From: Azolla caroliniana
Lineage: Eukaryota; Plantae; Polypodiophyta
Assembly: GCA_043228905.1 (NCBI GenBank)
Contig: JBHGNT010000001.1
Coordinates: 8,494,001-8,558,000, forward strand
DNA length: 64,000 nt
Reading direction: 5' to 3'
The notes beneath the pieces were generated by a model. The model saw only the letters and a list, made by a program, of their open reading frames with translations. It was not told the DNA's origin and searched no databases. Both the position numbers and the translations under genes were made by a program. Shown piece by piece: positions 2,765-55,100 of this stretch. The number at the start of each line of letters is the position of its first letter. Position 1 is the stretch's first letter.

Positions 2765-4219
2765 TTGGTGGCGAGGCTAAGGACTGCAAAGAACTTACCC
2801 ACAACTTGGGAAGGTTTTGTCGATGTTTTCAAGAAACATTTCTTGCAGCCACCTTCTCAAACCGAACAAGCGCAAAACTTGCTCACGTTGTCGAGCAAGC
2901 CATTTACCTCTCTCGAAGATTATGTGCATCCTACTCGAACCCAGATCCAAAAATCGGGACTTACGGGTGAGAAATGGTTTGTCGCTTGTTTTTTGAATGG
3001 TATTCCTAATGGGGATTACCATTGGATTGTCCATGATAAGGACCTCACAACTTTCGAGGATGTCGTCAACCTTGTACTTCGGAACCATAAGACTTCCAAG
3101 AAAGACCACAATAAACCTGAGTTCGCCAAAACTCCGAATCTCAAGTTCATTGGGAAACGTAAGCAATCCAGTGACACTCTTGACTTCGACTCAAAGAAAC
3201 GGAACCTCTTCTGTGCATAATGCATGAAGCGGGGCCACACAAATGATACATGTCGTCGTCTTGAGAGGAAGTCAATGAACACCCCTCCTCAAGACAAATC
3301 AACGAGTCACATAGGCGAGTCTTTTGATGTTATTGAAGTTCATACCAACTACTTAAGTTTATGTGAATGCACTTTTCCTTCGCATTTACTTGTACCTAAT
3401 GATTTACTCCGAGCAACCGGGTATATCAATGGAACACAAGCACATTTCTTGTTTGTTTCTGGTAGTTCTCACAATTTTCTTAATGATCACTTGGTGCAGC
3501 AAATGCAAATCCACATAAACAGAAGTGATCATATCTATCAAGTTCACATGGCAAATGGAGGCGTTCAATACATTAGTGACATTGTTTGTTAACTGCCAAT
3601 TCAAATAGATACCTATTTGGAGAAGCTTGACTTCCATGTTATGAAACTACAACTCGCAGATATCATTTTAGGATACCCTTGGTTTTTTAATAAAAACCCT
3701 TCTTTCACATTTGAACTTAATAATTGTAAACATTTTATTCAATGTTCCAAACTTCTTCTCATTCCCTTGTGTCTTCTAAATCTTTAAGCGAGTATTCTGG
3801 TTCATCTATTTATTTGTGTGTAATTGATCTCGTGCTTCAATTTTATTATTTTAATATTGATGGCACACAATTACCACATTATGAACAACAATTACTCGAC
3901 TCTATTTTATCTGATGATTTTCAAGATGTGTTTCCTAACGAATTGCTGCTTACTTTATGAACAAAACGTAATGTGGACCATCAGATTGAACTCATCCTCG
4001 GTGCTGCTCCTGTGAGCATTCCACCTTACCGACGTAGTCGATTAGAAGAGGATGAGATCGCTAAACAACTTAAGGAATACTTGAGTATGGGCCACATTAG
4101 GTACAGTAAATCACTTTGGGGTGCGCCAGTTCTATTAGTTAAGAAGAAGGAAGGTTCATGGTGAATGTGTAGCAATTATCGCCGTTTCAATAAAATAACA
4201 ATGAAAAATGCATATCCGT
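2765..4219 (+). pseudogene. gag-pol remnant of the first gypsy element
   Basis: ORF fragments 2765-3220, 3224-3592 and 3973-4164 carry gag, protease and RT motifs, separated by stops and frameshifts. Confidence 0.8.
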
Positions 4220-4441
4220 TATTGCAGTAATTCGCTTGTGCGGGTTGAAATGGGGCGGGACCACTGGGGTCTCAGACCAAGGAGGTGGTGAGAGAGGGAG
4301 GTTTGTTTGCATCAGATTCCAAATAGCTTTGTCGAATCTGCTTCCGGACAGCTTCACCCGATCGGTGTCTTTGCCGGGAAGATCTGGTCCGGACCCCTCT
4401 CCGGAAGTCAGACGGTGAGCAGACGACTCAGAGACGTATGA

Positions 4442-5073
4442 TGTTCCGGCCAGTAGCCAGGTGGCAGCAACAAGCTCATGGACTCACCCACTCAGATACT
4501 CGCACACAACAGGCATAGAACAGGGATAGGATCACAAGCTCGGGACGTGACGAACACACCACAACAGACCGGAGGGTCGACGACAAGGCTGACTAGTTGG
4601 GCCGACTGGACAGTCAACACTGGAGTCGTCTAATCAAATCGACTAGTCGATTAGTCGGCCAAATAACTATAATTATTGTTATGATAGGAATGACAATAGC
4701 AATGGCTACATTTGTAAATAGCCCATACAGTGTGTTAGTATAAATACACTTAGGACAAACATAGAGTGTGAATAACAGAATTGTGTGTGATCCTCTGTTG
4801 GTGTTAGCGACAGAGAAGTGAGAGTGTGAAAGAAAGAGTGAGTGAGAGCGGATCCATAGCCAAGTGAGATTTGATGCCAAGAGCCCTGTGTGGCTGATAC
4901 ACTATGAGTGGAGAGTGTTTGTATTCTTATCTCATCTTGTATTCTCTTGTGTATAGTGGAATCTCTGTTCCCGTGGTTTTTTCCGTTTAGGGTTTCCACG
5001 TAAAACATTGTGCGGTTGTATATTTTGTCTACTGTGTGGTTTACTATTTCCGCAAAACTTGTGTATTTCAACA
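4442..5073 (+). mobile_element. Probable solo LTR of a Tork-like Copia
   Basis: Shares TGTAAATAGCCC..AGTATAAAT and GTGGTTTTTCC..TAGGGTTTCCACGT with the LTRs of Copia I and J; ends TTCAACA. Start uncertain and TSD poor (TATGA/TATCT). Confidence 0.5.
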
Positions 5074-6549
5074 TATCTTTTTGTGGATCAACGATTCGAT
5101 TCCGAACATCCAGACCAGGGGCTCTCGTGAAACTCCGACACCGGCTTTGATTGGTCCTCTTCTTGTGTCACTACTTAGAGTGGAGTGCCGTTTTGCTTCT
5201 TCGGGTGCCGCCATATTTTACTGTTCTTTAGGACGAACCAGTACGCCTTCCTCTGGATCCAGCTTGCCTTGTCCCTTGTCCATGACCTGTCCGATGCCAA
5301 TGTGCTTAGAAACCTTCCTATCGAAAGCCACTCCCCGTCGAATTTGTTCAGGGCCAAATTGCTTCGTTTGTTTGCCGACTCGAAGAAGTCCTCGCTAACT
5401 TCCTCTCCTTTCGATACCATGCCGTCTTCGTTTTCGTATCATGCCCTTGATAGCATATCGGCCATGGCGTTGTCTTTCCCGGAGATGTGTCATATCTCCG
5501 GATTAAGAGACTTTATGTATGTGATCCACTTGAGCATTGCTAGGTCCGGCGTTGCGCCTCCGGAAACCATACCGAGAATCAATAAACAGACCATCTCGAT
5601 AATTACCTGTATCCCAATTAAGTAATATTTGTTAGACTTCACCGCCGAAATGATACCCCAGAGCTCCCTCTTCACTTGGACATATCCTTGTTGTTGCTCA
5701 CTTAGCACCTTCGCACCGAATCAGATGGGGAACTGTGTGCCGGCCTCGTCTTCCTAGTTGACCACCCATCTGATTCTGGTCGGACTCGTGTTGATCATCA
5801 GGTAAGTCATAGTCTCTTGTACACCACTTTCCGGAGAGTTCGTGCCGCCGTCAACATCTCTTGTAGTCTCCGAATCACCTCTGAGTGCTCTTCGCTCCAT
5901 TCAAATATCCAACATTTCTTTAGCAAGCCATAAAGCGGCTCGACAATATGCGCGTAATGTGGGATCCATATGTGGTAGAAGGCACATGCTCCAAGGAATC
6001 TGTTAAGAGATCAAGCTCAACTTAGTTTAGTTAGTTAGTCAACCATGTAACTTCGTAGTTACCTAGATAGAATCTAGTTAGAAGTGTTGATTATAACGCC
6101 TTAAATAGGACCTTGTACTTAAGTGAGATATTCTAGATCCGCCACTCCCAAGTACATTTAATATAAGACTTACACCCACCCTTGTACCTATATTCTCCTC
6201 ACACATGTGCACCCTTGCACATGAGATCTATATATACCACATTGTGTGTATTTTTGTTTTTGATGATGCTAATTTAATATAGAGTTAATCATCCCCCATC
6301 TTGTGTTGTTCATAAGTGTATCTTCCTCTCTCTCTTCCGCTCACACAAATATCACATAATCTTCTCTGCTTAACTTAATCACATAATTAGGTACTAATTA
6401 ACCCTTTCTTAGTTACCTAATTCTTAACATGGTATCAGAGTGTGTGGTCTAGAAAATCCACTAAGCCCACCCGACTCTATGATTGTGTGTTCGAGACGCC
6501 GACGACAAAATCTGGCTATCGGCTACCGTAGTGCAGCTATGTAGCACGT

Positions 6550-7139
6550 TGTCGTAGTGTACTTTGTACACTACGTAAAATATGTGTGGAGTACCCGATT
6601 GACTAAGTATAAAGAAATAGGAGAAAATACTACAATAATTATGTTACATGCATAGGGCAAGATTTAAACCCTATACCTCCATGTTAACGATTTTAAGCCT
6701 TACCATTGTACTAGCATATTATGAGTTTTAAAATTATACTAAACTTTATCCCATCTAAATATTCTAGATAAGCATGATAGAAAAAGTTATTCATGCATAC
6801 ACACTCGAGTTAAATGAAAAGATGTGAAAGAAAGCTAATCATGCACATGCAGTGTGCATGAAAGTTGTTGATTTTTTTATAAAGGGTTGATTAATATATT
6901 ATATTCGTGGGATTCACGAATTTGCCATCTATTTCTCTCTTGCAATTTAAATTCATATTCTTTCCTAAACATTAATTAATACACTATACTCGTAGGATTC
7001 ATGAGTTTCATATCTTTCTTCCTTATAATCTATTCATATTCATAACTAAACTTGTCTCAAATTCTTTCTCCTCCTAGTCCAAAAACCCCAGCGGTTCCCA
7101 CCCGACTCACGAAACGATTCGGCGCCGAAAGGCACGACA
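6550..7139 (+). mobile_element. AT-rich solo LTR related to family A at its termini
   Basis: TGTCGT...ACGACA ends and 4-bp TSD ACGT/ACGT. Absent from the equivalent position in copy E. Its 3' end resembles the family A U5 (CTAGTCCAAAAACCCC..GGTTCCCACC). Confidence 0.8.
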
Positions 7140-7216
7140 ACGTGTACGTGACCAAAGGAAGAAAAGATAAAAGGGAAGACATTATAACAAAATGAACATA
7201 CAAATGGGTAACTCGC

Positions 7217-7853
7217 TGTCGTGAAGAAAACCGGCCATAGGCGGAATCAGAGAGAAAGTGCGTAAACCGACCCTTACACGGATGGACGCGTGACTTGATA
7301 TTTTGCACACGAACCGGTGGATGTAAATACTAAGCGCGCACATTTATTAGGGGGGGGATTGTGCGTATCCCGGTCAGAGGGACAGGGAATAAAAGGAAGA
7401 GAAAAAGGGGAAAACGGGTATCGTGCGCGAGGACGAAGAAAAAGGCGTTGGTGCAGAATGGAAGGCGGAGCTCTCTCCCTTCGACTCGAATCGCCGCTCT
7501 CTGCGGGTGTCGGGGGGTCGCTACCTCTGCTTGATGGACAGCCCGTGTGCTTCCAGCAGAGTCGTTCCCTCCCCCCCCCCCCCCCCCCCCCTTTTTGTTT
7601 CTTTGAGTCGTGTGACTGTCGTCGGTGTGCGTGAGTAGGGCCCCCGTGCCGGGTCCGTCGCCGCTTTGTTGGTTGTAATTGTCGGAGTTTTTAATCTCTG
7701 TCATTATAATTAAGTGTTACGTTCTATATCTCTCTTTCTCGCTTCTACGTGTCGGTGAATCTCTCTCTCTCTGTCTCTCTATCTCTCGCTCCTCGGTCCA
7801 AGACCCCCTGTGGTCCCGCCCCTTTCTACACGTATGTGCGTAACAACGCGACA
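7217..7853 (+). mobile_element. Solo LTR, family A
   Basis: TGTCGTGAAGAAAACC...AACAACGCGACA, TSD TCGC/TCAC. Confidence 0.88.
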
Positions 7854-7857
7854 TCAC

Positions 7858-11483: not shown

Positions 11484-11506
11484 ACACACACACACACACA
11501 CACACA
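11484..11506. repeat. (CA)n microsatellite
   Basis: CA dinucleotide run. Confidence 0.9.
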
Positions 11507-12414: not shown

Positions 12415-12422
12415 TATTTAAA
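12415..12422 (+). promoter_or_regulatory. Putative TATA box of the dirigent-like gene
   Basis: TATTTAAA about 100 nt upstream of the ATG, followed by a CT-rich leader. Confidence 0.5.
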
Positions 12423-15742: not shown

Positions 15743-16449
15743 CGTAGAGTTTCAACATCTCCAACTATCATAATGAAGGGGGCAGTTGGTCCACTTCATA
15801 TAAACCAACATCATAGTTTCACAAGCCAACGCATGTTCCTATGTGTCATAAGTCCTTAAGGGTTTGTTCTAGTTGCTAGAATAACTAGTTTCCAAACTGT
15901 CATACCATTAAACCATTAAAATTAGCTCTAGAACTAGTCCTTAAGATTGTTATGCCTATAACTATGATCCCTTCCACATCCTTGACAAGTGGCCTCTCTA
16001 TGAAATCACACCATGAGGTCCTAGTTTTGTCGATCTTCAAATGTGGATGGTTTGTTTTTCATGGGGTTGTTGCATGGTCTTACCTTTGCCTCACGACATC
16101 CCTAACTGTAATAAAATTATGTTTATTCAAACATTGACTTACCATATGGGGACCTTAAGAACTGAGACACTTCAAATTTGGTTTCTAACGAGGCTCTCAC
16201 ACCCATAGCATGCATTCATCACATTGATCCCTGCAAAGTATGTAGACATGGTAAACATTGTTTTCTATCTCAATGTGGCGTGACAACACTCTTTCATGTT
16301 GTCTTTCTTCATATTTGTCCTCTATTTCTTCTTTAGAACCTTAATATCCATGGATACACTAAAGACTACCAAGAGAGAAAGAGAGACCATGATGCATGGT
16401 CAGTCCCAAGGTTGTTAGGTACGTTAGATACAGTATGGATACCATAAGT

Positions 16450-27091: not shown

Positions 27092-27113
27092 CTTCTGCTC
27101 TTCTGCCGCCTCC

Positions 27114-27131
27114 TTCACGTCGGGTTCACCA
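27114..27131 (-). promoter_or_regulatory. Primer binding site complementary to tRNA-Trp
   Basis: TGGTGAACCCGACGTGAA matches the 3' end of plant tRNA-Trp (...TTCACGTCGGGTTCACCA, from memory). Same PBS at 34714-34731 and about 43008-43025. Confidence 0.85.
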
Positions 27132-33569: not shown

Positions 33570-33574
<5 letters not shown>

Positions 33575-34746: not shown

Positions 34747-35685
34747 ATGGAGTCGGAAGACGACGACCTCGCGGTGATGGTGGCCGGAGTGGTGTTGGAG
34801 TCGGCACAAGTGGTGATGAGGCGAGAAGCAGCACAACAAGCGGTTGAGCGAGTGGTCGAAAGAGTCGGTCGTTTCAACGGGGACAAAGTCCCATCTTACT
34901 TGGAAGCCTACAATGCGGAAATGGAGGAGGGTGGTGTAGACGAGTCATTGAGGTTGGAGTTCTTCTGTCGGGTTGTAGCTGTTCGGATGCATGCGGAAGT
35001 AAAGGAGCTCCGTGAGGCTCATAGTTCGTGGGAGGCCTTCGAAGAGGCGCTCCTGAAGGCATACGGAGGACGGCGGAAGAGCCGGGGACGACACGACTTC
35101 GACCAATGGGTAGCATCGGCAAAGACCCATCGGGGCGCGACCAAGGCGTTCCGAGAGTTCGAGCGACGGCTTGCTCGGATCCCAGAGCGGGAACAAGGTT
35201 TGGTGGGGGCGGACAAGGTCCTATTGTTCGTCAGGTTGATCGACCGAGCGGAACGGGAGGCCATCGGGATTGAGCTCGAAGACGATGACGGGGTGAATGG
35301 GCTTACGGAGGACTGGTCGAAGGTCGGAAGGGTGTGCCAACGGCTAGACGATGAGCGAGCCGAGAAGGCTAAGAGGAAGGCGCGCGACGGCATGCCATCA
35401 CAGCGGGAAGAGGCCGAACGGCAAAGAGAGCCAGCAAGGGTCGGCGTTGGGGCCAGGATTGCGGAGGCGTACGCAGCTCTCGAGGCGATGCTCGAGGAAG
35501 AGGAAAGATCAAGGCCGCAAGCCGAGACTGAGGAGACGGACTTGCCCCACTCGACGGCGGAAGATCGGTACGACGGTACCACGGGAGAGGGCGCGAAACA
35601 AAACACCCTCTCGACTTGTGGAGATAGAACAGCCAAGGACGAGGTCGAGATACAGATCGCGGAACCGGATAGTTGGGACCAATAG
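34747..35685 (+). CDS. gag: Gag-like ORF of element B (capsid-like region, no zinc knuckle); frame continues to 36207 past one stop
   Basis: VGRFNGDKVPSYLEAYNAEM...KVLLFVR...GLTEDWSKVGRVC aligns with the Gag of element A. Confidence 0.75.
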   Translation: MESEDDDLAVMVAGVVLESAQVVMRREAAQQAVERVVERVGRFNGDKVPSYLEAYNAEMEEGGVDESLRLEFFCRVVAVRMHAEVKELREAHSSWEAFEEALLKAYGGRRKSRGRHDFDQWVASAKTHRGATKAFREFERRLARIPEREQGLVGADKVLLFVRLIDRAEREAIGIELEDDDGVNGLTEDWSKVGRVCQRLDDERAEKAKRKARDGMPSQREEAERQREPARVGVGARIAEAYAALEAMLEEEERSRPQAETEETDLPHSTAEDRYDGTTGEGAKQNTLSTCGDRTAKDEVEIQIAEPDSWDQ

Positions 35686-40700: not shown

Positions 40701-41305
40701 TATTTTGCCGGAAGTTGTATTGAGGAGTCCTTCTTAATAGTGCTAGAAGGATGTACTGATATGGCAAATAGGAACATTGCCTCCTTGGGTCCTTCTTCGC
40801 GTAGTTGATGGAGTGAAATGGTCGAAACTCGGTGAGTTGATTCTTGGGGTGGCCGATATCGGACTTCTCTTGTTCTCCAATCTATGGCTGGATTATGTAA
40901 TTCAAGCCAAGGTAATCCTAGGACAATGGGATGCTCTGGACTACTAATTATATTAAATGATATTATACACACAAAACTACCTAGGACAACTTGAATGGGT
41001 TCTGATTCTTCTACAATATTCCCGGAAGCAATGGGACGACCATCAATGACCACTACAGATGCGGGACAAGGAAGTTTTCTTAAGGATATCTGAGAAGCTT
41101 GGGCAAAATTTCGATCCATGAAACAGGAATTAGCTCCGGAATCTAAAAGTGCTAGGACGGGTACTGGGGGAGTATTTTTAGTACTAACAATGACTTGGGC
41201 TAGGAACACATTGCTAACTTGCTTGGAAGGAATGGAACCACTAATGGGCTGTACAGATCTAGGGCTGCTGTCCAACCAAATGGCTCCTATTTTGGCTGGA
41301 CTCAA
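37733..41305 (-). CDS. pol: Pol (PR-RT-RNase H-integrase-chromodomain) of element D
   Basis: ALLDSGA; YLDD; EADASDFALG; HHCC; GPF; chromodomain EYEVATILDSKLVRNKLYYLVDWLGYSPSEHTWEP. Confidence 0.97.
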   Translation of the reverse strand: MSPAKIGAIWLDSSPRSVQPISGSIPSKQVSNVFLAQVIVSTKNTPPVPVLALLDSGANSCFMDRNFAQASQISLRKLPCPASVVVIDGRPIASGNIVEESEPIQVVLGSFVCIISFNIISSPEHPIVLGLPWLELHNPAIDWRTREVRYRPPQESTHRVSTISLHQLREEGPKEAMFLFAISVHPSSTIKKDSSIQLPAKYHPYADVFDKVKAGTLPHHRPYDCPIDLQPGTEPPWGPIYNLSPTELEVLRAYIEENLASGFIRHSKSPAGAPIFFVKKKDGSLRLVVDYRGLNKVTIRNRYALPLISSLLERVNGAKFFTKIDLRGAYNLVRIRPGDEWKTAFRTRYGHFEYTVMPFGLTNAPAVFQHMANDIFRDLLDICLIIYLDDLLIYSKTQEEHDSHVLLVLKRLRENGLYAKLEKCSFDCKQVEFLGYVISSKGIAMDPAKIQTVLEWQIPRSVRDVQCFLGFANFYRKFIQDYSKIILPLTQLTKKGQAFLWSIEADMAFRHLKKAFTSAPILAHVDTSKPFIMEADASDFALGSILSQQGDKEELHPVAFHSRKFNVAEINYEIHDKELLAIVDSFVQWRHFLEGSPHQVIVLSDHKNLAYFQNARVLNRRQARWAQFLTRFNFEITYRPGKQQGKADALSRRSYLAPRPGDATFDNQKQVILGPTRLHTTRIFHTPMDSRITDDIRATLKTDSFAQDILAHIDTSRASSSQSQQPGIDYRQFEYHDGLLFFKKRVYVPDCSGRLQIVQHCHDTHTAGHFGSTKTLELVQRSFWWPHMRRFVDDYVRTCDACCRAKMPRHHPYGLLEPLPIPSKPWQSICLDFITDLPVSKGFDAILTVVDRYTKMAHFVPCTKAITSEETAALVMREVFRHHGLPDSIISDRGPQFVSKFWQHLFRMLKVSCNLSSGYHPQTDGQAERTNQTLEQYLRCFLSYQQDDWAEILHFAEFAYNNAIHSSTRVSPFLAYTGFHPRWSVIDTPELPTNPRAEDHLERLRKIQMDLSTHLRHAQHTQKTYADRHRIPSSFAIGDRVWLLRRHIKTTRPCDKLDYRRLGPFRITGKINDVTFRLDLPPQLQIHPVFHCSLLEPYKANTIPDRVTPPPPPLELDDGPEYEVATILDSKLVRNKLYYLVDWLGYSPSEHTWEPVENVANAQDLLADFHRKYPDKPGPQLAPTRSTRRL

Positions 41306-42459
41306 TCGTTTAACTCTTCATCTAATTGACTAAGGATTTCAAATTTATTTGAGATACTTGGGCTATTGGTACTATGAATACTATCTGACACTCTATTAGT
41401 ACTATTAATACTATCAGACACTCCAAAGGGAAGAATTGACTCGGGTTTAGTACAGGCGACGATTTGATTTACCTGTCTTCTTGGCCTATGGGGACAATTG
41501 ATGGCGATATGTCCTGGTCCACCGCAATAAAGACATAATCGATTGGCACGTCGTCGTTGCTTTTCTTCTTCCGATAACGGGCCGCGTCGACGCATGGTAT
41601 CGATCTCCATCGGTGTCGAAGTATTTGCTTGAGGTGTGTCTCGTGCAAACGGTTTAGCCGCGACTGCGGCGTAAGTGGGCTCTGGCCTAGAGCGTGGTAT
41701 CTGTAATTGACGTTCTGAACGCCGTTCAAAAAGGCGGTTGTCACATCGAACTGCTCGACTGATTGCCTCCGTAAGAGACTTTGGTTCTTCGGGGAAAGTT
41801 AGAAGTAGATCTTTGACATCGTTTCGCAAGCCATAGCGAAACTGCTCCATTAGTGCTTGATCATCCCAGGGTATATCTGAAGCAAGTAGGCGGAAATCCG
41901 CCGCGTAGGCAGAGGCTGGACGATCGCCTTGACGCAATCGCCGAATCTTGTTGATCGCCGTCCTGATGCTGTCGGTGTCTCCAAAGCAGGCTTTAAACTC
42001 ACCAATAAAATCTTCAAAGTTATTAAGTAAGGGTGATTGTTTTTCTAGAAGCGGAGCAAACCATGCCAAGGCTGAGCCGCTAAGTAGCGTGCCTACTAGG
42101 CCGACTCGAGATGCATCAGTGGGATATCGGGAAGGATGCATCTGGATGACTAAGCATACCTGATTAAGGAATCCCCGGAATTGCGAACGCGTTCCATCAA
42201 ATTTCACAGGAAGTCCAATCTTGGGCTCTTTATGAAATCCTTGGGGACTGGATCCTTGTTGTTGCAACGCTGCTTCGAGTTGTTGTACCCGTAACGCTAA
42301 CTCCCCATGTTGTTGTTGCGTTTGTTGTTTTTCTAGAGCGATTTGTTGCAGATCCCCTATCAGCCGTTGGTTTTCTTGTTCCAGGGCAACAAACTTTTCT
42401 TTTAGGCACTGTAGCTCGGAGAAAACGGATTGGTATTCTTGGGCGCTAACAGTAGCCAT
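41302..42459 (-). CDS. gag: Gag of element D
   Basis: Coiled-coil-like N-terminus; capsid-like KFDGTRSQFRGFLNQ...LRQG; CCHC knuckle CLYCGGPGHIAINC. Confidence 0.96.
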   Translation of the reverse strand: MATVSAQEYQSVFSELQCLKEKFVALEQENQRLIGDLQQIALEKQQTQQQHGELALRVQQLEAALQQQGSSPQGFHKEPKIGLPVKFDGTRSQFRGFLNQVCLVIQMHPSRYPTDASRVGLVGTLLSGSALAWFAPLLEKQSPLLNNFEDFIGEFKACFGDTDSIRTAINKIRRLRQGDRPASAYAADFRLLASDIPWDDQALMEQFRYGLRNDVKDLLLTFPEEPKSLTEAISRAVRCDNRLFERRSERQLQIPRSRPEPTYAAVAAKPFARDTPQANTSTPMEIDTMRRRGPLSEEEKQRRRANRLCLYCGGPGHIAINCPHRPRRQVNQIVACTKPESILPFGVSDSINSTNRVSDSIHSTNSPSISNKFEILSQLDEELND

Positions 42460-42513
42460 AGTATAAGGAAAAGGGTAGGAGGATGAGGGAGAGTGACAAG
42501 TAGGCTAGAGGAA

Positions 42514-42525
42514 AAATTGGTTCAA
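42514..42525 (-). promoter_or_regulatory. Self-priming PBS of element D
   Basis: TTGAACCAATTT 2 nt after the LTR, complementary to AAATTGGTTCAA (42736-42747), which starts 33 nt after the first base of TATAAAA in the LTR. Confidence 0.85.
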
Positions 42526-43041
42526 ACTGTCAGGAATAGTACTAAAACAGAGATGGAATTAGTACTAAGAACAGCAGTACTAGTAGTACTAAGAGGACGG
42601 GACTGCGTAAGATTCCCGAGAGAGAAAGTGAGAAGAGGAGAGAGAGAGAGATAGCGAGAATGAGAGAGATGATGACAGCAGCTATATATTATGTGAAAAG
42701 ATAAGTACAAGCGGCTAAGAGGCTTAAGACTGGCGTTGAACCAATTTGGTTCAAAACAATGCCTTGTGCCTCCTTTTATAGTGTTTTTAGGAATAATCTT
42801 GAAGCTTCTAGAATGTTCCAGAGAGATCTGGAATATACATCAATTTTCTATGATAAAGTATAAATGAAAATAATATCCTACAAAATACAATTCCTAATCT
42901 AATGGTAAGAGCTCGACCCATGTAGCATAAAGTCATGGGTTCGAGTCTTGCCATGACACCCGGTGGTCCCACCCTTCTACACGTAAGCGCGCAACAACGC
43001 GACATCTTTGGTGAACCCGACGTGAAGGGCGGCAAGGGAGC

Positions 43042-46000
43042 ATGGAGATGGAAGAAGACTTGAACTTCGAGGAGATGATGGCAAAAATCGTGATGGAAGC
43101 CGGACAGAAGATGGCGAAGCGAGATGCGGCTCAACAAGCCGTCGAAAGGGTGGTCGATTGAGTCGGCCGATTCAAGGGGGACGATGTCCCGAGGTTCTTG
43201 GAAGCGTACGATGCCGAGATGGCGAAAGGGGGCGTGGACGAGGAGATGCGGCTAGAGTATTTTCCTCGAGTGGCGGCCGCATCGGTGCACAAGGAGGTCA
43301 AGGAGCTACGAGAAGCTCACGAGTCGTGGGTGTCCTTGAAGGTAGCCCTATTGGAAGCATGCGGATACGTGAAACCGGAGTGGGTATGCCGGCAACCCGA
43401 TGGGGAGCGGTCGGGAACAACGTGGCCCGCGAGCGGCAGAGAAGAGAGAGCAGCGAGTGAGTACGCACTACCGCCGGAAGAGAGCTCAATGCAAAACGGT
43501 TCGGAGAAGCTCGACCTAGAAGCGCTAATACGAGAGGCATGCGAGCTTGTGAAGGCGAAAATCAGAGCCGAAGAAGGGCTTGTTATGGAGACGGGCCGGA
43601 GGTGATCGGAGGATGCGGAGGAAGAAGCCTCCCTAGACGTAGAAGACGGGGCCTATACGGAGGCCGGGAGAGCGTACTACGGCGAGATAAGAGAGGGTGC
43701 GGAGCAAGCGACCCTCTTGCCTTGCGGTGAAGGGACGGCCATGGAGGCCGGTAACTACGGATTCGGGACATGGCGGCCCGAAACATCAAGTGAGGAGCGG
43801 ACAAGCGGCGGTGCTGCGACCTTACACACACCGGTCCTAGAGACTCCGGCATCCGGCCCAAGAGCCGATGTGAGACCTAGAGTGACGGACGGTGGCGGCG
43901 GCAAGGCGGGCAACCGAGACAACGGCATGGGAGAGATGGTGGCAAGCGTAATCGAGGTTTGCGGAATCGGAGATGGGGTAGCCGCGGACAACGACGACTG
44001 GACGAAAGCGGTTACTGACACGAGTGGCGGTGCCGGCTCCTTACCCACACCGGTCCTAGAGGCTCCGGCGGCCGGCCCGAGTGCCGGTGTGAGACCTAGA
44101 GCGACGGGCGGTGGTGGCGGCAAGGCGGCCTACCACGGCGACGAAGAGAACGAGGAAGAGATAGCCACGGACCACGGCGTCCGAACGAAGGTGGCTACGA
44201 ACATGGCATCGGCGAGTAACGGTATCGGGACTTTTCCCACACCTATTCAAGAGACTTCGGCAGTCGGCCCTGAGAGCCCACGTGAGACCGGAGAGACGGA
44301 AGGTGGCGGCGGCAAAGCGGACGATCGAAACGACAACGAGGAAGGTCATAGCGGACAGAGGCAAGACCTCTCGACACCGAGACCGGAGACTACGACGGTT
44401 GCGCTCGAATGCCAACATAAGACCGGAGAGAAGGGCGGTGGCCGTGAGGAGGTGTGGCCCGGAGCGAACACGTACGAAGATGAGGACGCCAGGCCCGGAA
44501 CGGGCATATACGAGAGGACCGACGGAGAGGTCGGGAGCGGCAAAGAGGAGACAGTCGAGAACCGACCCGACCGGAAGATGGACCGGTCGATAATCCGACA
44601 TGACCGGAAGACGACGCGGAAGAACATTGGAGCGGGGTCTGGTCAACCGGGCCTGAACCGAAGAAGAGCTGGCAAGGTCGGATTTGTTCGGAGAAACATC
44701 TACCAGCCGGTTACAATTACGGAAGGGAGCCGACCTAACCGGAACTCGATCGGCCGAGACCGATCCGGGCGAAGGCTAAGTTGGCACGGTTGGAGGTCGA
44801 GGCGAACGGGCCACAACACCCGGTGGGAGCCGGTGAGCGCGAGAAGGAAGCTAACCGGGCACGGTGATTACAGCTTGGCAGAAGACCGAGAGCGAGAGGA
44901 GCCCTCCACATCTATCCTTGAGACTTCGGCGGTTGCGGATCAACATAAGACCGGAGATACGACGGGTGGCGGCGAGGAGTCGGAGACCGGAACTGACGAG
45001 GCCACTAGAACGGGTACCCGGTGCGTGAAGACGGATGAGCACGGACAAGACGGCAAGCCGGAGTTGAAAGGGGCTACGGCAAGAAAGGACGAAGAAACCG
45101 ACGCGGAGGTCGGGTCTATGACGGATGAGGCGCGTAATACGAAGTATGCACTACGGCGTAAAACGGAGCATGCACTACGGCCAGTGAAGGACCAAGAAGT
45201 AAGCATGCACCCGGAAGAGCGGCAACGAGTGACCGACAACGGTGGACCGGTCGAGCCTTTGAGAGACAAGCACGCGGCGAGAGACGAAGCCGTAAGGTGC
45301 CGAGATCGGCGGATGGGTGGCGAGAGCGAAGGATGGTGCACGGAGAACAACGGGTTACGCACCGGGAAGAGAAAACGCAGCAGCTTCCCGGAGGACATAC
45401 AAGGCCAAGCGGGCCAAGAGGGCGCAAGCCGAGGCGAGGCGGTAACGAGAGCCTCGAGGGACACCGACACGGAGGTCGGGAGGACGGTACGCTCTACGGT
45501 GAGAGAGCACGACGGTCAAAGGAGAGGCAAGGAACGCGGAATGGGGTCGCCTAAGGGCCAAAGAATGAGCGCATATTCGGGGGACAACATCAACGCATGA
45601 GAAGAGCCCATGGAAGGCAAGCACGGAGCAGGAAGAGTCGACACGCCGAGGAGTTCGGCATGCGGAGACGATAAAACCAAAGGAGGAACATACGCGGCAC
45701 GAAAAAGGCGGAATCCGGAGTACGATCGGAGAGTTCAAGAGCGCACCCGGAGGACATACGAGCCTTTGCGAGGAATGCGCGCGGCGAGAGATGGAGCGGT
45801 GAGGTGCCGGTATCGGCGGATGATCGACGAGCGTGAAAGGCTATGTCTTGAGAACCGGAGGAGGTGCGTGGAGAGAAACGGGCTACGCGCCGGGAAGAGG
45901 AAGCACGGCTTCCCGGAAGGCATGCGAGGCCAAGCGGGCCAAGAGGGCGAGAGTCGGGATGAAGCGGTAACGGGAGTCGCGAAGGACATTGACATGGTGG

Positions 46001-46383
46001 TCGGGATGACGGTACGCTCTACGGCAAGAGAGCACGACGAGCAAGGGAGAAGCAAGGAGCGCGTAATGGGGTCACGTAAGGACCGAAGAACGAGCACGCA
46101 TTCGATGGACGACAACGACGCACGGAAAGTGCCTACGGAAGCCGAGTGCAGAACGAAGGGAGTCGGTACGAGGTGTTCGGGGCGAGGAGAAGGTCGAGCC
46201 GGAGGTGGAACACACGCGATACGCGAGGAGCGGCACCCGACGAGCAATCGAAGTAATCGGGGGTCTAACCGGAGGACATGCGCGGTGAGCGAAGGAAGGG
46301 AGACCGGATCGGCAACGGTGTTCGGGATGGCCGGTCGAAGAAGAAGGTGCATGCGCCGGACATGGCGGATCGGATGGAGCTGA
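43042..46383 (+). pseudogene. Single long reading frame in element C: truncated Gag fused to a low-complexity repeat tail; three in-frame TGA stops
   Basis: ORFs starting at 43198, 43717 and 45610 are all in frame with ATG 43042; stops at 43159, 43603 and 45598. Confidence 0.65.
45180..46140. repeat. Diverged direct duplication, period about 507 bp
   Basis: GAGCCTTTG.GAG..A.GC.CGCGGCGAGAGA at about 45253 and 45760; GGCCAAGCGGGCCAAGAGGGCG present in both units. Confidence 0.8.
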
Positions 46384-49300
46384 CGGTTCGGGGAAACGCG
46401 GTGGACGTGGTGAATCGGATGGAGTCGGCGGGTCGGGGCCGGCAAGACGGATCGGCGCCAGCAAGGGACCGGCAAGGCGGTTGGGTGTTGGTAAGGCGAA
46501 AGACCCGGTTGATCACCATCGCCGAAATCTCTCACCCTTTTCCTTTCTTGGCACATACCGGTGGATGTGCGGTTTGGTGGGGGTGGATGTCGTGAAGATT
46601 TCCGGCTATAGTGTGAAACCGGGGTGGAAGGGGCAAGTCGGTGGTGTGCAACATGTGCACATGTATACTAGGATATGGTGTATAGAAAGAGAGGGGAAAT
46701 TTTTGTCCCACATTGTAAGGTCCCTCCCTCCTTGGGCTATAAAAGGAGGGGAGGGGTCACTTATGAAGGGGTTGCCTATTTTGAGGGAGAGAGGCATACC
46801 ACTTAGGTCGAGGGTTTCCTATTCGGTTTTAGGGTTTTGGTTAGGGTTTTCTTCTTGGGTTTTCCTTTAGGGTTTTCTTATAGTCGTTTGGTGCGGCCAT
46901 GGCGGCCACCATTGTTGTAACCATTCGTTGTTTTAATATAACTTGTTGAACATCTTGCCTCCGCCGATCTCTCCTTCTATGTCGTGGTCTTATTCTTTCC
47001 TCTTCTCCTCTTGAGCTAAGCCTCCATATCGTGTCCTCTTCTTTCTCCTCCACTCCATAGTCCGAGACCCCGGTGGTCCCGCCCCTTCTACATGTAAGCG
47101 CGCAACAACGCGATAACGGTTGACGTAAGACCAAGATATTGACGGTGGCGGCGAGGTGACGAAGGTAAAAAGGGCTACGGATGGGCGGTCTACGGAGATC
47201 CTCACACCGATCCGGCGGTCGGCCCGAGAGCCGGCGTGAGTCCTATAGGGAAGATCGGTGGCGGCAGGAGAACGTGATTGGACAGCAAGAGGCGACGAAC
47301 GGCAAGGAGGTATCAGGCTGGCGAGGCGGCCACGAACCAAATCGGACCTTCCGGCAAGGTCAGTGGGCGTAAGGAAGTCCGGTCCTACGGGATCCCCACA
47401 CTTAACCAGAGACTCCGGCAGTTCGGCCAACGTGGCAACATGAGACCGAGAGAGAAGGTTGGTGGCGGTGGGAAACGGGACCTGACTACGCGGAAGACAC
47501 GAGGAGAGTCAGGGAAGAACTCAAACAAAAGACACCTGAATTTCGGCAAGCATAGAAACGGAGTCTGGTCCTATGGGACCCTCACACCGATCCGGAGACT
47601 CCGGCAGTTCGGCCAATGTGGCAACATGAGACCTAGGGAGAAGGACGGTGGCGGCAGGGAACGAGACCCGACGACACGAGGTAGCGGATAGGGAGCCGGT
47701 AAAACGGGCGGACGAAGTGTGAAACCCTCACCGGCCGGTTACGGTTTCAGAAGGAGCCGGTAGGGGCAAACACAGGGAGGTGTGTCAGGCCGGAAAGGCA
47801 CACCTGGGACGGAACAAGAGTCTCGCAAGTGGCCATCGCGGGCCGGATCAAAGCGTGACTGCGGGACGGTGTTCGGCGCGGGCGGAAGACGGCACAAGGG
47901 AGGTGTCGGGAACGAGGTGACATAGTGGACTGCACAGGGTCAGAGTCAGGGGATGACAAGAGAGGCCGGAGGAGGATCCTCCACACTCGCTTCGTAGATC
48001 TCGGGAGCTCCGTCGAAGTAGCGAAGACTGACACGGCAAGCCCGGGGTGACAAGCTGGTGGGGGCGAGGGGACAACGACAAGCGGAAGACTCGGGACCTG
48101 TTGCAACAGCACGAAGACGGGAAGGGCTAAGCAGGCTACTACGGGGTGTTCCTCGGATGCGAAGGACACTAGTATGCGGGTGAGCGGCGATGCACGATCT
48201 GGCCGGAAAAGGGGGGCCGACAAGGCGTGCAATGAACCGGAGTACGGCACAGGCAGTGCCAAACAACGGACGAAGGTATGTGGCACACGAAGGTGCCGGA
48301 GCGGGAAGGCGAGCGCGGAGACAGTTTGCGCGGTTTGGAGGTAGCGCGAAGAAGGCCAGAAAGGGATCCTCCACACCATTCTGGAGACCATGGCGGTTCG
48401 AGCCAACGCGGCAATGTAAGACCATGGAGAAGGAAGGTGGCGGCGAGAGGACGAGGGCAACGTGAAACAACATGGGACGGCAATCAGGACGACGCGAATG
48501 ATCAACGGAGGCCAAGCGGGCCACTATGGGCATTCCCCAAGCGGAGGACATCGGGCATACGGCGGGGAGCGGGGCGTTCATACGACCGAACAAGGGCCAA
48601 CGGAAGTACGCGTAGGACCCATCGACGGGTCGAACGAGCCTACGGGGAGGTAAGTGCGAAGGAAGAACCGAAGCCGACAGATCAAACCGGCAGCGACCTG
48701 GGATGCGGATTACGGAAGACCGGTTTCTCACCGGCCGAAATCTCTCACCCTTCACCGGATTTGGCACGTACCGGTGGACGTGCGGTTAGGTGGGGGCGGA
48801 TGTCGTGGAGAATTTCGGCCAGAGGTGGAAACCGGGAAACATTGGCTACATCGGCGGGGTGCAGCATGTGCGCTCACCCGTGTACATTTAGTGTGAATAA
48901 CGAGGGCGCCTTTATGGCGCCGAAGAGTAGTCAAGTCGGGACAGACAATCCCATGTAACTCAGGATTTATCCCACATTGTAACGCATCCCTCTCCTTGTT
49001 CTATAAAAGGAAGGGAGCGCCCTTTGTGAAAGGGGTTGCCCATTTTGCGTTAGCGGGTATACCGTTAGATTTAGGGTTAGTTACATTTCTTCTTCTTGTT
49101 GTTCTTCTTCTTCTTCTCCCCCTTCGTGTTCGCTTAGGGTTTGCTTCAACTCCTCTCCTGCGCAAGACCCCGCTCGGCGCGACGAGCCCGTGAGGTCCCC
49201 GACCGGCGGCTTGGCAGTTGACGACTATTGTAACCTACCTTGGTCCGGCTCGAAGCCGGGAATGTATTCTTCCTCTTATATATATACATTTGCGTCTGTC

Positions 49301-51321
49301 TGTGTATATTCGTGTCTCTGTTGGTGTCGGGTGCTTCCCCTTTCCTGCGTTTCCTGTACATAAGGGCGTGAGTCGGGTCAGCCTGTGTGTGTGTGTGTGT
49401 GTGTGCGTGTGTGTGTGCATGCATGTGTGTGCGTGAGTCGATGTTAAGCGCGCGCTCCCTCTCTTTCTCTCTCTCTTCGGTTGCCTCCGGTGTGCTTCTG
49501 GGATGCCCCGGAAACGGTGAAGTACGACTTCCTACGCTCCGTCACTCTCTAGTCCAAGACCCCCGGGGTCCCGCCTTTCTCCACGCACGCGCGTAACAAC
49601 GCGACACCGGTTTGTTTGGATATTGACGATGGAAGTCTTCAAGAAGAGCACGAGCATTGGTCACATTCTATATTGGTTCCCAAGTATGCTCGCTGGGACT
49701 ATATCCTAGCTAATCGACTAAATAGTAAAGCTTGTTGCGAACAATCTTGGAATTCAGGATGGCGGCAACCTCGTACTTAGGTCCATCTTCAAGTTTGATC
49801 AGGGGTGGAGGTTGTTTAATACGACCTGGGATGGTGCTGTCTTGATAGGATTCGAGGAGGGAACTATGAAACAATCGATGTATCTGAAGTTGTGGAGGTA
49901 GATCGACACGAAAAGTGACATCATTAATTTTTCCGATAATACGGAAAGGACGTAATAGTCGATAATCCAACTTCTCGCATGGGCGAGTAGTCTTGATGTG
50001 TCGTGGTAGTAGCCACACCCAATCTCCAATGTTAAAATTGGATGGAAGCCGATGATGATCTGCGTAAACCTTGTGTGTTTGTTGAGCTTGTTGTAGGTGA
50101 GTAGATAAATCCGATTGTATCTTCCGTAACCACTCCAAACGATCCTCTACGCAAGGATTTGTGGGTAACTTTGGGGTTTCAAATACACACCACCGGGGGT
50201 GACAGCCCATATAAGAATAAAATGGTGTAACCTTTGTCGATGAGTGGACAGAGTTATTATATGCAAATTCGGCGAACTGGAGAATATCCGCCCAGTTACC
50301 TTGATGATAGATTAGAAAGCACCGAAGATACTGCTCTAGCGTTTGATTTGTGCGTTCTGTTTGGCCGTCTGTTTGTAGGTGGTAGCCGGAGGAGAGGTTA
50401 CACGTGACCTTGAGCATTTTAAAGAGGTGCTTCCAGAATTTCGAGACGAACTGGGATCCACGGTCGTTGATGATACTATCGGGAAGGCCATCATGCCGAC
50501 ATACTTCACGCATGACAGTTTTGGTAGTTTTCTCACTGGAGACTTCCTTAGTACATGGCAGGAAATGGGCCATCTTCGTATATCGATCTACTACTGTTAA
50601 GATCGCATCGAATCCCATAGAGACCTGAAGATCTGTGATGAAATCTACAGCAATGGATTGCCACGGCTTGCTTGGAATTGGTAATGATTCTAATAAACCA
50701 TATGGACGATGCCTTGGCATTTTTGCTTTGCAACATGTATCACAAGTCCAAACAAATTTTTTGACAAATTGTCGCATATGGGACCACCAGAATGATCGTT
50801 TTAGTACTACCAAAATTTCCTGGTTGTATATGTGTCATGACAGTTTTGGACTACTCAAAGGCGACAAGAACCATTAGGAACATACAAGAGTTTCTTAAAG
50901 AATAGTAATCCATCATGACATTCGAATTGTCGATAGACCGTACCAGGTTGTTGCGACTGTGAACAAGATGCTCGAGAGGGACCAATTTGTGCTAGAATGG
51001 CTTGGACGAAAGCATCTGTCTTCAAGTCCTCACGTATGGTATCGATAACGTGGGAATCCAAGGGCATACTGAAGACCTGTGTTGCTTGCAATCATACTGG
51101 TCCCAGGATTACTTGCTTTTGGTTATCAAAAGTTGGCTTGCCATGATGTGGTGCTAGATACAAGCATCGTGATAATGCATCTGCCTTCCCTTGTTGCTTC
51201 CTTGGACAATATGTAATTTTGAAGTCCAAACGAGTGAGGAATTGGGCCCACCGAGCTTGATGTCAATTTAACACACAAGCATTCTGAAAGTAGGCAAGGT
51301 TTATGTGATCACTCAATATGG

Positions 51322-52134
51322 TGTCATGAAGAATTCTGGCCAGAGGCGGAAATCGGGAAATATTGGCTATATCGGCGGGGTGCAGCATGTGCGCTCACCC
51401 TTGTACATTTAGTGTGAATAACGAGGGCGCCTTTATGGCGCCGAAGAGTAGTCTAGTCGGGACAGAGAATCCCATGTAAGTCGGGATTTATCCCACATTG
51501 TAACGCAACTCCCTCCTTGTTCTATAAAAGGAAGGGAGCGCTTCTTGTGAAGGGTTGCCCATTTTGTATTGGCAGGGTATACCGTTAGACGAAGAGACGT
51601 TCTCTCTTCCTCTTTCTCTCTTTCCTTTCTTGCTCTCCTCTGCTTCTTCTTCGTCGTTCTGCGCGTCGGGCACTGGCGTCTAGCGTTTCGGTTTTTTGCC
51701 TTGTACTTTATGCAAGCCCCGCTCGGCGCGACAAGCCCAAGAGCTCCCCGATCGGCGGCTTGGCAGTAGACAACAGTTGTATCCTATGCGACCTAGGCCC
51801 GGCTCGAAGTCGGTGTTGAATCTCGTTGTCTTGTAAATACATATACATTTGGTTGTGCATATTCGAGTCTCTGTTGGTGTGCATGTGTGTGTCTTTGTGT
51901 TTCTTTCTCGTTTCTGTACATAAGGCGTGAGCTGGGTCGGCGTACTGTGTGCGTGTGTGCGAGAGTCAATGTTGTGTGCTTGCTCTCTCTCTCTCTCCCT
52001 CCCTTTGGTTGCTTCCGGTGTGCTTCTGGGATTCCCCGGAAACGGTGAAGCACGACTTCCTATGCGTCGTTACTCCCTAGTCCAAGACCCCCGTGGTCCC
52101 GCCTTTCTCCACGCACGCGCGAAACTTTCCGACA
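51322..52134 (+). mobile_element. Solo LTR of the B subfamily, inserted in the RNase H region of G
   Basis: TGTCATGAAGA...TCCGACA, TSD ATGG/ACGG; U3 highly similar to the B LTRs. Confidence 0.9.
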
Positions 52135-55100
52135 ACGGTGACTTGATGAGAAGATCCCTCTAGAAAATTCCTCCATTGTGTAAAAGAGTCCACTATTGCT
52201 AATAGCTCCTTATCATGAATTTCATAGTTGATTTTGGTGGCGTCAAACTTGCGTGAGTGGAAAGCCACAGGATGGAGCTTTTCATCATCGCCTTGTTGTG
52301 ACAGAATGCTACCCAATGCGAAATCTGACGCATCTGCTTCTATGATGAATGGTTTTTCCAGATCAACATGAGCCGGAATAGGAGCTGATGTAAATGCCTT
52401 CTTAAGATTCTCAAAAGCCATGTCCGCTTCTTCAGACCAAACGAACGATTGTCCCTTCCTGGTGAGCTATGTGAGAGGCAAAACAAGCTTTGAGTAATCC
52501 TGTATAAACTTGCGGTAGAAATTAGCAAAGCCTAAAAAGCCTTGCACATCTCGCAACAAACGCGGAGACTGCCACTCTACCACCGTTTTGACCTTAGTTG
52601 GATCCATGGAGATGCCTTCCGAGGAAATGACATAGCCCAAAAATTCTACCTGGTTGCACTCGAAACTACATTTTTCCAGCTTTGCATAAAGACCATGTTC
52701 TCGAAGTCGTTTTAGTACTAATTGTACATGAGAATCATGCTCTTCTTGGGTCTTCGAATAAACCAGTAGATCATCCAAATAGATGATCAAATAAACATCC
52801 AAGAGATCTCGGAATATATCATTTGCCATGTGCTAGAAGACTGTTGGTGCAGTAGTGAGGCCGAATGGCATGACCGTATACTCGAAGTGCCCATATTTGG
52901 TGCGAAATGTAGTCTTCCATTCATCTCCTGGTCAAATCCGTATGAGGTTATATGCTCCTCGTAAGTCGATCTTTGTGAAGAACCTTGCACCATTGATCCG
53001 TTCTAAAAGACTTCAAATAAGGGGAAGTGCGTACCTATTCCTGATGGTGACCTTATTCAAGCCACGATAATCTACAATGAGACAAAGTGATCCATCCTTT
53101 TTCTTGACGAAGAAAATGGGTGCGCCGGTTGGAGATTTCGAATGTCGAATGAAACCATTTGCCAAATTCTCCTCTATATAGGCTCGTAGGACTTCTAGCT
53201 CGGTTGGTGACAAATTGTAGATTGATCCCCACGGTGGCTCTTTTCCCAGTTGTAAATTGATGGGACAATCATACGGTCGATGGTGAGGAAGAGTATTGGC
53301 TTGTACTTTATCAAACACATCGGCATAATGAAGATAATTCTCTGGAAGTTGAATGTTGGACTCCTCTTTAGTGGTGTTGGAGGGTTTTACTAATACTGCG
53401 AAGAGAAACATTTCTTCCTTACATCCTTCCTCACACAACTGATGTAGCGAAATGGTTGCAACCTTATGAGTAGATCCTCAGGTTTGTCAATACCGGATTT
53501 CCCTTGTTCTCCAATCTATGTCTGGGTTATGTTGAGACATGTACTAGAGAGGTACTTTTAGTACTAACTATTACTTGGGATAAGAACACATTGCTAACTT
53601 GCTTAGAGGGAATGTAACCACTAATGGGTTGCACAGATCTAGGGTTGTCCAACCAAACGGCTCCTATTTTGGCTGGACATCAAATTTGTTCGATAGATTT
53701 GGGCTATTAGTACTATTAGGACTATCAGATATTCCTATTGAAATAGACTCGGATTTAGTACAATTAGAACTAGCAACTATTTGGTTCACCTGTCTTCTAG
53801 GCCTATGGTAACAGTTCATTGCAATATGCCCTGGTCCACCGCAATAAAGACATAGTTGATATGCTCGGCGTCGCTGCTTTTCTTCTTCCGATAGTGGTCC
53901 GCAACGACGTGTAGTGTCAATTTTCATCGAAGCTGGAGTATTCACTAGAGAGAGACATTATATTACTCCCTTGGAAAAGGTTTTGCTACCACTGAGGCGT
54001 AGGTGGGCTCTGATCTTGCCCTTGGCTTCTAGAACTGACGTTCCGAACGTCGTTCGAAAAGACGGTTGTCGCATTCACCACGCGACTAATTGCTTTTGTC
54101 AATGACTTTGGTTCTTTGGGGAAGGTCAAGAGTAAATCCTTGACATCGTTACGTACACCATAACGAAATTGCTCCATAAGTGCTTGGTCATCCCAGGGGA
54201 TATCAGAGGCGAGTAGGCGGAAATTTGCAGCGTATGCGGAGGCTGGACGATCACCTTGACGTAATTGTCGGATTTTGTTGATTGTTGTGCTTATGCTATC
54301 AGTATCTCCAAAACAGGCTTTAAATTCACTTAAAAACTCTTCAAAATTGTTTAGTATAGGAGATTCATTTTCTAACAACGGAGCGAAGCATGCCAAAGTT
54401 GAGCCAGTTAACAACGTGCCTACCCACTCGTGATGCATCGGTGGGATATCGGGAAGGATGCATTTGAATGACTAATCGTACCTGATTAAGGAATCCTCTA
54501 AACTGTGATCACTTTCCATCGAATTTCATGAGAAGGCCGATCTTGGGTTCTTTATAAACCCCTTGCGTACTGGATCCTTGTTGCTGCATCGCGATTATGG
54601 TCGCTTCGAGTTGTTGCACGCGTAACGCTAGTTCCCCATCTTGTTGTTGCGTCTACTATTTCTCTAAGGAGATTTGTTGAAGCTCCCCCAACAGTCGTTG
54701 ATTTTCTTGTTCCAATGCAAGAAACTTCTCTTTCAAGCATTGCAACTCCAAAAAAACGGATTGATATACTTGAGCGCTAACAGTGGCCATAGTATGAGAG
54801 AAAGAGGAATAAGAGATTAGTATGAAGGGAGGGAGAAGTAAGAAGATAAAGGAAGAGAAGGAAGGAGACAAAATTGGTTCAAACTGTCAGGAACAGTACT
54901 AAGAGAGAGAAGTATTGTCAGGAATAGTACTAAGACAGAAAGAATTAGTACTAAAAGATGAGGATTAGTACTAAGGGATATGTAGAACTCTCGAGAGAAG
55001 GAAAGAGTGAGAGAGAGAGAGAATGATGATAACAAAAGATATATATTATGTTAAGAGAATATACAATAGTAGCTAGGAGGCTTAAGACTGGCGTTTAACC

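What the first reader, a model, noticed from the sequence alone, without database searches (positions are those of the whole stretch)
4216..52138. Family A gypsy elements insert at 4-bp targets centred on CpG
Seen: target tetramers are CCGT (4216), ACGT/ACGT (6546), TCGC/TCAC (7213), ACGT (19545), GCGT/GCGT (20617), ACGC (30153), CTGG/CCGG (33921), GCGG/ACGG (36801) and ATGG/ACGG (51318). Nine of ten junctions are NCGN; the exception is AAGT at 16446. Six have both TSD copies, and some lie in CpG-poor hosts. Three of the four TSD mismatches are CG>TG or CG>CA at that central CpG, as expected if it is methylated. Known: most plant LTR elements make 5-bp TSDs with weak preference, while some insect gypsy elements make sequence-specific 4-bp TSDs. 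Inference: this integrase recognises CpG or methyl-CpG, a chromodomain-free way of landing in other transposons that would explain the nesting.
Basis: partly seen in the sequence, partly recalled or inferred. Interest (0 to 1): 0.85.

Follow-up and report, generated by a model that had tools for sequence, protein, structure and literature searches.

The report
Phygy-type retrotransposons inserting at CG sites
These plant jumping genes almost always land on a four-base site with CG in the middle, a real but already published habit of the moss 'Phygy' lineage to which they likely belong; the integrase likely reads the CG sequence or shape itself, and whether it prefers methylated CG is untested.

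Summary
All ten tetramers are at the stated places and 9 of 10 are NCGN (P about 2e-12 against local CG background). It repeats outside the window: 15 of 18 junctions in related contigs, and a raw-read flank consensus starting ACGT. It is not new: Neumann et al. 2019 list Phygy (186 Physcomitrella elements) with a 4-bp NCGN TSD and a tRNA-Trp primer site. The intact copy here (20621-27947) has a primer site recalled as Trp-type and no chromodomain or archaeal RNase H. No tree with Phygy references was possible. The methylation inference is unsupported. TSD mismatches postdate insertion, and CpGs decay heavily inside sister LTRs too (16 of 65). Copia and chromovirus elements nest here without a CG rule. 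Best reading: a 4-bp-stagger integrase has narrowed the known flexible-YR preference of foamy-virus-type intasomes to CG (consensus VCGB). Two conserved candidate loops are a shortened DRGEL loop and a C-terminal QH loop. A methyl-CpG preference remains open and is testable with this intact integrase.

The parts
20621..27947 (-). Intact autonomous Phygy-type element, 7,327 bp, inserted directly behind the primer-binding site of a copia element
   Evidence: LTRs 99.5% identical; TSD GCGT/GCGT; empty paralog at 6388-6492
27136..27947 (-). 5' LTR, 812 bp, TGTCG...CGACA
20621..21432 (-). 3' LTR, 812 bp
27113..27135 (-). Primer-binding site TGGTGAACCCGACGTGA after a 4-nt spacer; complementary to the 3' end of plant tRNA-Trp (tRNA identity recalled, not from a call)
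   Evidence: a TGGTGAACCC core follows 18 LTR ends in the window and loci
21433..21445 (-). Polypurine tract
24965..27142 (-). ORF1 gag (DUF4100 hit) plus predicted protease (VDHGSE motif seen in the translation)
21504..25004 (-). ORF2 RT-RNase H-integrase, overlapping ORF1 in the -1 frame; no chromodomain, MBD or archaeal RNase H hit
21549..22760 (-). Integrase: HHCC, DDE core with shortened DRGEL loop, SH3-like C-terminal domain with conserved QH...KF..RW.GP
4216..4219 (.). Target CCGT, one-sided; old minus-strand copy inserted in a chromovirus RT remnant
6546..7143 (+). Solo LTR of a divergent family (6550-7139) with TSD ACGT/ACGT
7213..7857 (+). Solo LTR 7217-7853 with TSD TCGC/TCAC
16446..16449 (.). 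Target AAGT, the exception; one-sided, before a decayed plus-strand copy starting at 16450
19545..19548 (.). Target ACGT, one-sided; 3' end of a minus-strand copy sitting at the integrase region of the 16450 copy
30153..30845 (+). Target ACGC, 5' LTR 30157-30831 and truncated PBS, inside a copia integrase gene
33921..49610 (+). Non-autonomous gag-only element 33925-49606 with TSD CTGG/CCGG
36801..47119 (+). Non-autonomous gag-only element 36805-47115 with TSD GCGG/ACGG, itself carrying a chromovirus at 37291-42958
51318..52138 (+). Solo LTR 51322-52134 with TSD ATGG/ACGG inside a chromovirus pol

Best explanation
These are chromodomain-less Ty3/gypsy elements, likely of the Phygy lineage, whose insertions leave a 4-bp duplication with CG at the centre, likely because the integrase bends its target sharply at the central step and accepts CG there by sequence or shape, with no evidence that methylation is needed. 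Shown: the 4-bp TSD, the central CG, the avoidance of T before and A after the CG (VCGB), the missing chromodomain, a PFV-like integrase fold, and two lineage-conserved loops. Inferred: target capture works as in the foamy virus intasome, where a 4-bp stagger unstacks a central pyrimidine-purine step. The narrowing from YR to CG likely comes from the C-terminal QH loop reaching into the widened major groove, helped by the one-residue-shorter DRGEL loop. The non-autonomous copies likely use the same enzyme in trans. CG-to-TG/CA changes in the TSDs are later decay of methylated DNA.
For: Window 9 of 10. Related contigs 15 of 18 NCGN, plus one NCAN and one NTGN, against mean background 0.032. Raw reads of run X23: 1,338 flank ends with a consensus starting ACGT, and about 1,000-1,200 of about 3,650 reads running on through a GCGT reference flank, with A or C at the first base in 766 of 1,036. 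Published Phygy row: 186 elements, 4 bp (100%) NCGN, tRNA-Trp 81%, no extra domain (PMC6317226 supplement). Outer base on both strands of 24 CG targets: A 25, C 12, G 9, T 2, which matches the PFV TSD consensus VYRB and the T/A avoidance of 4-bp retroviruses (PMC4422553 passages). Best solved matches of the model are PFV intasomes (Foldseek E 1.5e-20; Z 19.2, rmsd 2.8, 166 aligned). DRG[ED]L is one residue shorter than PFV, Ty3 and the window's chromovirus where PFV has Ala188, with E in 71 of 77. The C-terminal loop has Q in 72 of 77, H in 71 of 77 and K in 77 of 77.
Against: No tree with published Phygy sequences could be built (reference FASTA too large). The element is 329 bp shorter than the smallest P. 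patens Phygy. Two of 28 junctions (AAGT, TCCA) fit neither CG nor its decay products. In PFV, Ala188 and Arg329 touch bases at or outside the TSD edges, not the central step, so the role given to the two loops is a hypothesis. The C-terminal loop did not align to PFV Arg329 by sequence and is equated only by its place between strands in the model. Nothing here excludes a methylation preference on top of the sequence preference.
Confidence: 0.72

Rival explanations
1. The integrase senses 5-methyl-CpG during target capture, so it lands in silenced transposons and avoids genes without a chromodomain or MBD.
For: All window sites with an identifiable host lie in other retroelements. In P. patens methylation is confined to transposons (PMC6453930 passages), so such a sensor would be useful. 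Phygy-in-Tcn1 was the commonest among 26 repeated nested pairs, found mostly in P. patens (PMC6911290 passages). Phygy is enriched at centromeres of a liverwort (PMC12885004 passage). The 5-methyl group lies in the major groove, where the C-terminal loop is expected to sit (established knowledge plus inference).
Against: TSD decay is post-insertion and is also seen inside sister LTRs. No MBD or chromodomain hit. Nearly the whole window is nested retroelements and other families nest here too. Six of 17 flanks in related contigs matched nothing in my small TE set, and the contigs were fetched by their integrase, so that test is biased and inconclusive. Drosophila ZAM-group elements use a CGCG target (PMC5408687 passage) in a host that has lost DNA methylation (PMC6673714 opening text).
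Confidence: 0.17
2. The integrase has only a general flexible-YR preference; CG dominates because hosts are CG-rich or because other insertions were lost or missed.
For: Young family A DNA is CG-rich (about 100 CG per kb). Two related-contig targets are NCAN and NTGN.
Against: Many hosts are CG-poor (0.007-0.02 at three window sites; mean 0.032 in loci). TA never appears as a centre in 28 junctions. Junctions were found by LTR-end models that ignore the flank.
Confidence: 0.05
3. A host or element-encoded tethering protein (for example a methyl-DNA reader) brings the intasome to CG-rich chromatin, and the CG rule follows from that.
For: Precedent for tethering by a captured MBD in CopiaMBD (PMC6673714 abstract). 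DUF4100 in ORF1 has no known function.
Against: Tethering biases regions. It does not easily place CG at exactly the centre of a 4-bp stagger in 24 of 28 junctions (inference). No reader domain is found.
Confidence: 0.06

Closest known systems
Phygy clade, non-chromovirus Ty3/gypsy (Neumann et al. 2019, PMC6317226; passages, section 9 and Additional file 5 read)
   Same: 4-bp TSD with NCGN preference, Trp-type PBS, no chromodomain, no aRH, no extra ORF, coding region fills the interior
   Different: Described there as specific to P. patens. Here relatives are 51-68% identical in the liverwort Riccia, the element is slightly shorter, gag-only derivatives follow the same rule, and ORF organisation (listed as not determined) is gag-protease overlapping RT-RH-INT in the -1 frame.
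TatI and Selgy clades (same paper)
   Same: 4-bp TSD; TatI also uses tRNA-Trp
   Different: TatI has an archaeal RNase H, which is not found here. Selgy uses tRNA-Ala and is about 5 kb. Neither is listed with an NCGN preference.
Prototype foamy virus intasome (PMC4422553 and PMC4005685, passages read)
   Same: 4-bp TSD, central YR step, V and B outer bases, closest solved integrase fold
   Different: PFV preference is weak and accepts any YR. Here it is close to strict CG, and the alpha2 loop is one residue shorter.
Drosophila errantiviruses of the gypsy, ZAM and Idefix subgroups (PMC5408687, passages read)
   Same: Sequence-specific 4-bp targets (TATA, CGCG, ATAT)
   Different: CGCG has a central GC, not CG. 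The host is an insect without CpG methylation, and many of these elements carry env.
CopiaMBD (PMC6673714, abstract and opening text read)
   Same: Proposed methyl-CpG-guided integration into transposon-rich DNA
   Different: It uses a captured MBD domain for regional tethering. No such domain is found here, and the rule is at base resolution.

Membership tests
Phygy | Groups with Phygy in RT-RH-INT phylogeny (the formal definition) | not testable with these tools
   Reference FASTA too large to read. My tree only shows a well-supported clade with Riccia and unnamed relatives, far from the window's chromovirus.
Phygy | 4-bp TSD | tested here: met
   6 of 6 two-sided sites
Phygy | NCGN target preference | tested here: met
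   9 of 10 in the window, 15 of 18 in loci
Phygy | tRNA-Trp primer-binding site | tested here: met
   Conserved TGGTGAACCC core behind 18 LTR ends; assignment to tRNA-Trp is recalled, and no tRNA gene lies in the window
Phygy | Ty3/gypsy order RT-RH-INT, no chromodomain, no aRH, no extra ORF | tested here: met
   Pfam scan, ORF list, domain spacing
Phygy | Size 7.7-10.0 kb (descriptive; the paper calls size relatively insignificant for classification) | tested here: inconclusive
   7,327 bp, just under the published range
TatI | Archaeal RNase H in the polyprotein | tested here: not met
   Only RT_RNaseH families hit, one stretch; no second RNase H between RH and integrase
Selgy | tRNA-Ala PBS, about 5 kb | tested here: not met
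   PBS read as Trp-type (recalled); 7.3 kb
Chromovirus | Chromodomain after integrase | tested here: not met
   Absent in 21504-25004, present in the neighbouring chromovirus pol 37733-41317
Methyl-CpG-reading retroelement (CopiaMBD type) | MBD domain | tested here: not met
   No MBD Pfam hit in either ORF
Methyl-CpG-reading retroelement (CopiaMBD type) | Binding or integration preference for methylated DNA | not testable with these tools
   No methylome and no whole genome

The most novel reading that the evidence does not exclude
Phygy-type integrases read 5-methyl-CpG directly at the centre of the bent target, through the conserved C-terminal QH loop. That would make them methylation-sensing integrases that avoid genes with no chromodomain or MBD.
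Probability: 0.15. Interest if true: 0.78.

Novelty: new member of a known kind. Interest (0 to 1): 0.3.

Why it matters
The target rule itself is published: Phygy is the one plant LTR lineage that Neumann et al. reported as sequence-specific. This window adds three things. The rule holds in several families of another non-seed plant, including gag-only derivatives. It refines to VCGB, which fits foamy-virus-type target bending. And a young intact copy with two candidate specificity loops makes the open mechanism testable. If methyl-CpG were preferred, it would be a new gene-avoidance strategy and a natural methylation-guided integrase. If not, it is still a rare near-strict CG-specific retroelement integrase.

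Tried and rejected
No whole genome is held, so no genome-wide TSD logo was made. An LTR-start pattern found 0 matches in viral contigs. Contig runs X2, X4 and X5 gave no listed loose ends at the LTR termini; only raw reads did. The ESM Atlas look-up of homolog P0001 gave generic Ty3/gypsy pol clusters with no useful taxa. Cluster look-ups of 10 homologs gave no Physcomitrium name. Sequence alignment of the C-terminal domain to solved structures gave only chance hits. Classifying junction flanks as TE or non-TE was inconclusive. Candidate junctions dropped before the 15-of-18 count: L048 (terminus not identifiable), L012 position 534 (internal repeat of the LTR end) and L080 (a polypurine-tract junction). 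L056 and L011 were kept although one terminal base is mutated; L011 was found through its likeness to the 6550 LTR. Rejected: that TSD mismatches show methylation at insertion; that CG targeting is needed for nesting; TatI, Selgy and chromovirus membership. Searches for a published mechanism or methylation test for Phygy found none, but the library lacks most subscription papers, and two Neumann supplements could not be read.
Full report
What the window is. The closest named relatives of the family A integrase region are from the liverwort Riccia (about 51-68% identity), with closer unnamed ones at up to 79% and 95% in metagenome contigs.

The observation. All ten tetramers are where stated, and nine are NCGN. 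LTR-end models seeded from polypurine-tract and primer-site junctions, which ignore the flank, recovered nine of the ten sites and no additional outer junction. The tenth, the solo LTR at 6550-7139, belongs to a divergent family that shares only a 3'-end motif. Six sites have both copies, and all six duplications are 4 bp. The three intact non-family-A insertions have 5-bp duplications GAATC, AATAA and CCCGG. Against the CG frequency of each host flank, P(9 or more of 10) is 1.8e-12, and 2.9e-8 using the highest local rate everywhere. Seven sites have an empty paralog in the window, with CG intact in four and TG or CA in three.

Evidence from other DNA. In 80 related metagenome loci I found 18 usable outer junctions: 15 NCGN, one CCAC, one CTGC and one TCCA, against a mean flank CG frequency of 0.032. 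Three candidates were dropped as listed under Tried and rejected. The contigs carry closely numbered assembly accessions and may be one campaign. In raw reads of run X23, 1,338 reads leave the LTR start into flanking DNA with a consensus beginning ACGT. Laid on the GCGT junction, about 1,000-1,200 of about 3,650 reads ran on into the flank, and 766 of 1,036 read A or C at its first base, so they were carried through by matching the following bases. Another 2,151 stopped at the terminus with a polypurine-tract consensus. My rough estimate is that about 70% of target-flank reads fit NCG. This depends on the aligner's clipping and is an inference. Over both strands of the 24 CG targets the base before CG is A 25, C 12, G 9, T 2, so the consensus is VCGB with ACGT commonest.

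It is already known. Neumann et al. 2019 (PMC6317226; passages, section 9 and Additional file 5 read) write that Phygy elements have an insertion preference for the NCGN motif, as the one exception among plant lineages. They tabulate 186 elements, 4 bp (100%) NCGN, tRNA-Trp 81%, 7.7-10.0 kb, no extra domain. PMC6911290 (passages) adds that Phygy mostly makes 4-bp TSDs, that 4-bp TSDs have GC-rich centres, and that Phygy-in-Tcn1 was the commonest among repeated nested pairs in P. patens. The intact element at 20621-27947 meets the TSD, primer-site and domain features and falls just under the size range: LTRs 99.5% identical, a primer site that I recall as complementary to plant tRNA-Trp, RT-RH-INT with no chromodomain or archaeal RNase H. 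The formal test, a tree with Phygy references, could not be run. My own tree shows only a supported clade with Riccia and unnamed relatives, far from the chromovirus.

Methylation. The fourth (GCGG/ACGG) fits CHG decay: the terminal CA plus flanking G became TA plus A, and the host paralog keeps GCGG. CWG methylation by PpCMT is documented in moss (PMC6453930 passages). Both TSD copies are made at insertion, so a difference between them is younger than the insertion. CpG decay is also strong inside sister LTRs: 16 of 65 CpG sites against 14 of 655 other sites for 33925/48801, 2 of 17 against 0 of 452 for 36805/46588, and 0 of 79 for the youngest element, whose TSD is intact. The locus became methylated; its state at insertion is unknown. 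Nesting is general here, since copia and chromovirus elements sit inside family A copies. Of 17 flanks in related contigs, 10 lie in or near recognisable retroelement sequence, one has such sequence further off and 6 match nothing in my small library, with a selection bias towards retroelements.

Likely mechanism. The integrase model (pLDDT 84.4, pTM 0.58) matches foamy virus intasomes best. PFV makes a 4-bp duplication, bends the target sharply, unstacks a central YR step and has the TSD consensus VYRB, and 4-bp retroviruses disfavour T first and A last (PMC4422553 passages). VCGB is a narrowing of that pattern. PFV base contacts come from Ala188 in helix alpha2 and Arg329 in the C-terminal beta1-beta2 loop (PMC4005685 passages). 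In family A the stretch after the second catalytic Asp is DRG[ED]L[DN], one residue shorter than in PFV, Ty3 and the window's chromovirus, with Glu in 71 of 77 aligned proteins. The loop after the WVLV strand of the C-terminal domain carries Gln (72 of 77), His (71 of 77) and Lys (77 of 77). I infer that these loops set the CG rule. This is untested: the PFV residues touch the TSD edges rather than its centre, and the C-terminal loop could not be aligned to Arg329 by sequence. Because the 5-methyl group lies in the major groove, a methyl preference is physically possible, and I give it about 15%.

Verdict. The feature is real and strongly non-random, and it belongs to a new member of a lineage for which the rule is published. 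My searches found no published mechanism or methylation test for Phygy, so the remaining interest is that an intact young copy makes that question testable. Interest 0.3.

Noticed in passing
window 24965-24974 (- strand); loci L001, L005, L006, L008, L009, L012-L018, L037: GGATTTT lies directly before the ORF1 stop in 14 of 18 hits (one miss is a broken window copy), followed by predicted stems. It likely is a -1 ribosomal frameshift site placed between protease and RT rather than between gag and protease; that GGAUUUU is a known slippery site is recalled. Phygy ORF organisation is listed as not determined.
   Followed up: partly
window 33925-49606 and 36805-47115: Two nested non-autonomous elements keep the LTR ends, PBS, PPT and a gag-like ORF (about 37-40% to family A gag), then long repetitive GC-rich open frames with no Pfam hit (43606-45600) and no pol.
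   Followed up: partly
window 6550-7139; L011:177-433: An AT-rich solo LTR with an internal inverted repeat (6887-7051) belongs to a divergent family; its relative in L011 is also followed by ACGT.
   Followed up: partly
window 55707-59139 against 33401-55315: Two chromovirus copies lie in opposite orientation with their gag ends facing across 55316-55706; the right LTR at 54885-55315 lacks a clean terminus and matching TSD.
   Followed up: no
window 59144-64000: A young copia with long open frames (59766-63856, - strand) and the first 162 bases of its two LTRs 100% identical runs off the window end.
   Followed up: no
run X23 laid on window 20521-21532: A few reads join one LTR terminus to another, in one case across a single ACGT, suggesting insertions directly beside other copies or tandem structures; the library is Hi-C, so chimeras are possible.
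   Followed up: no
window 21001-28000: Family A interiors are CG-rich (94-114 CG per kb, observed/expected 1.1-1.3) while old regions have 7-30 per kb, so a CG-specific integrase would favour its own young copies by target density alone.
   Followed up: no
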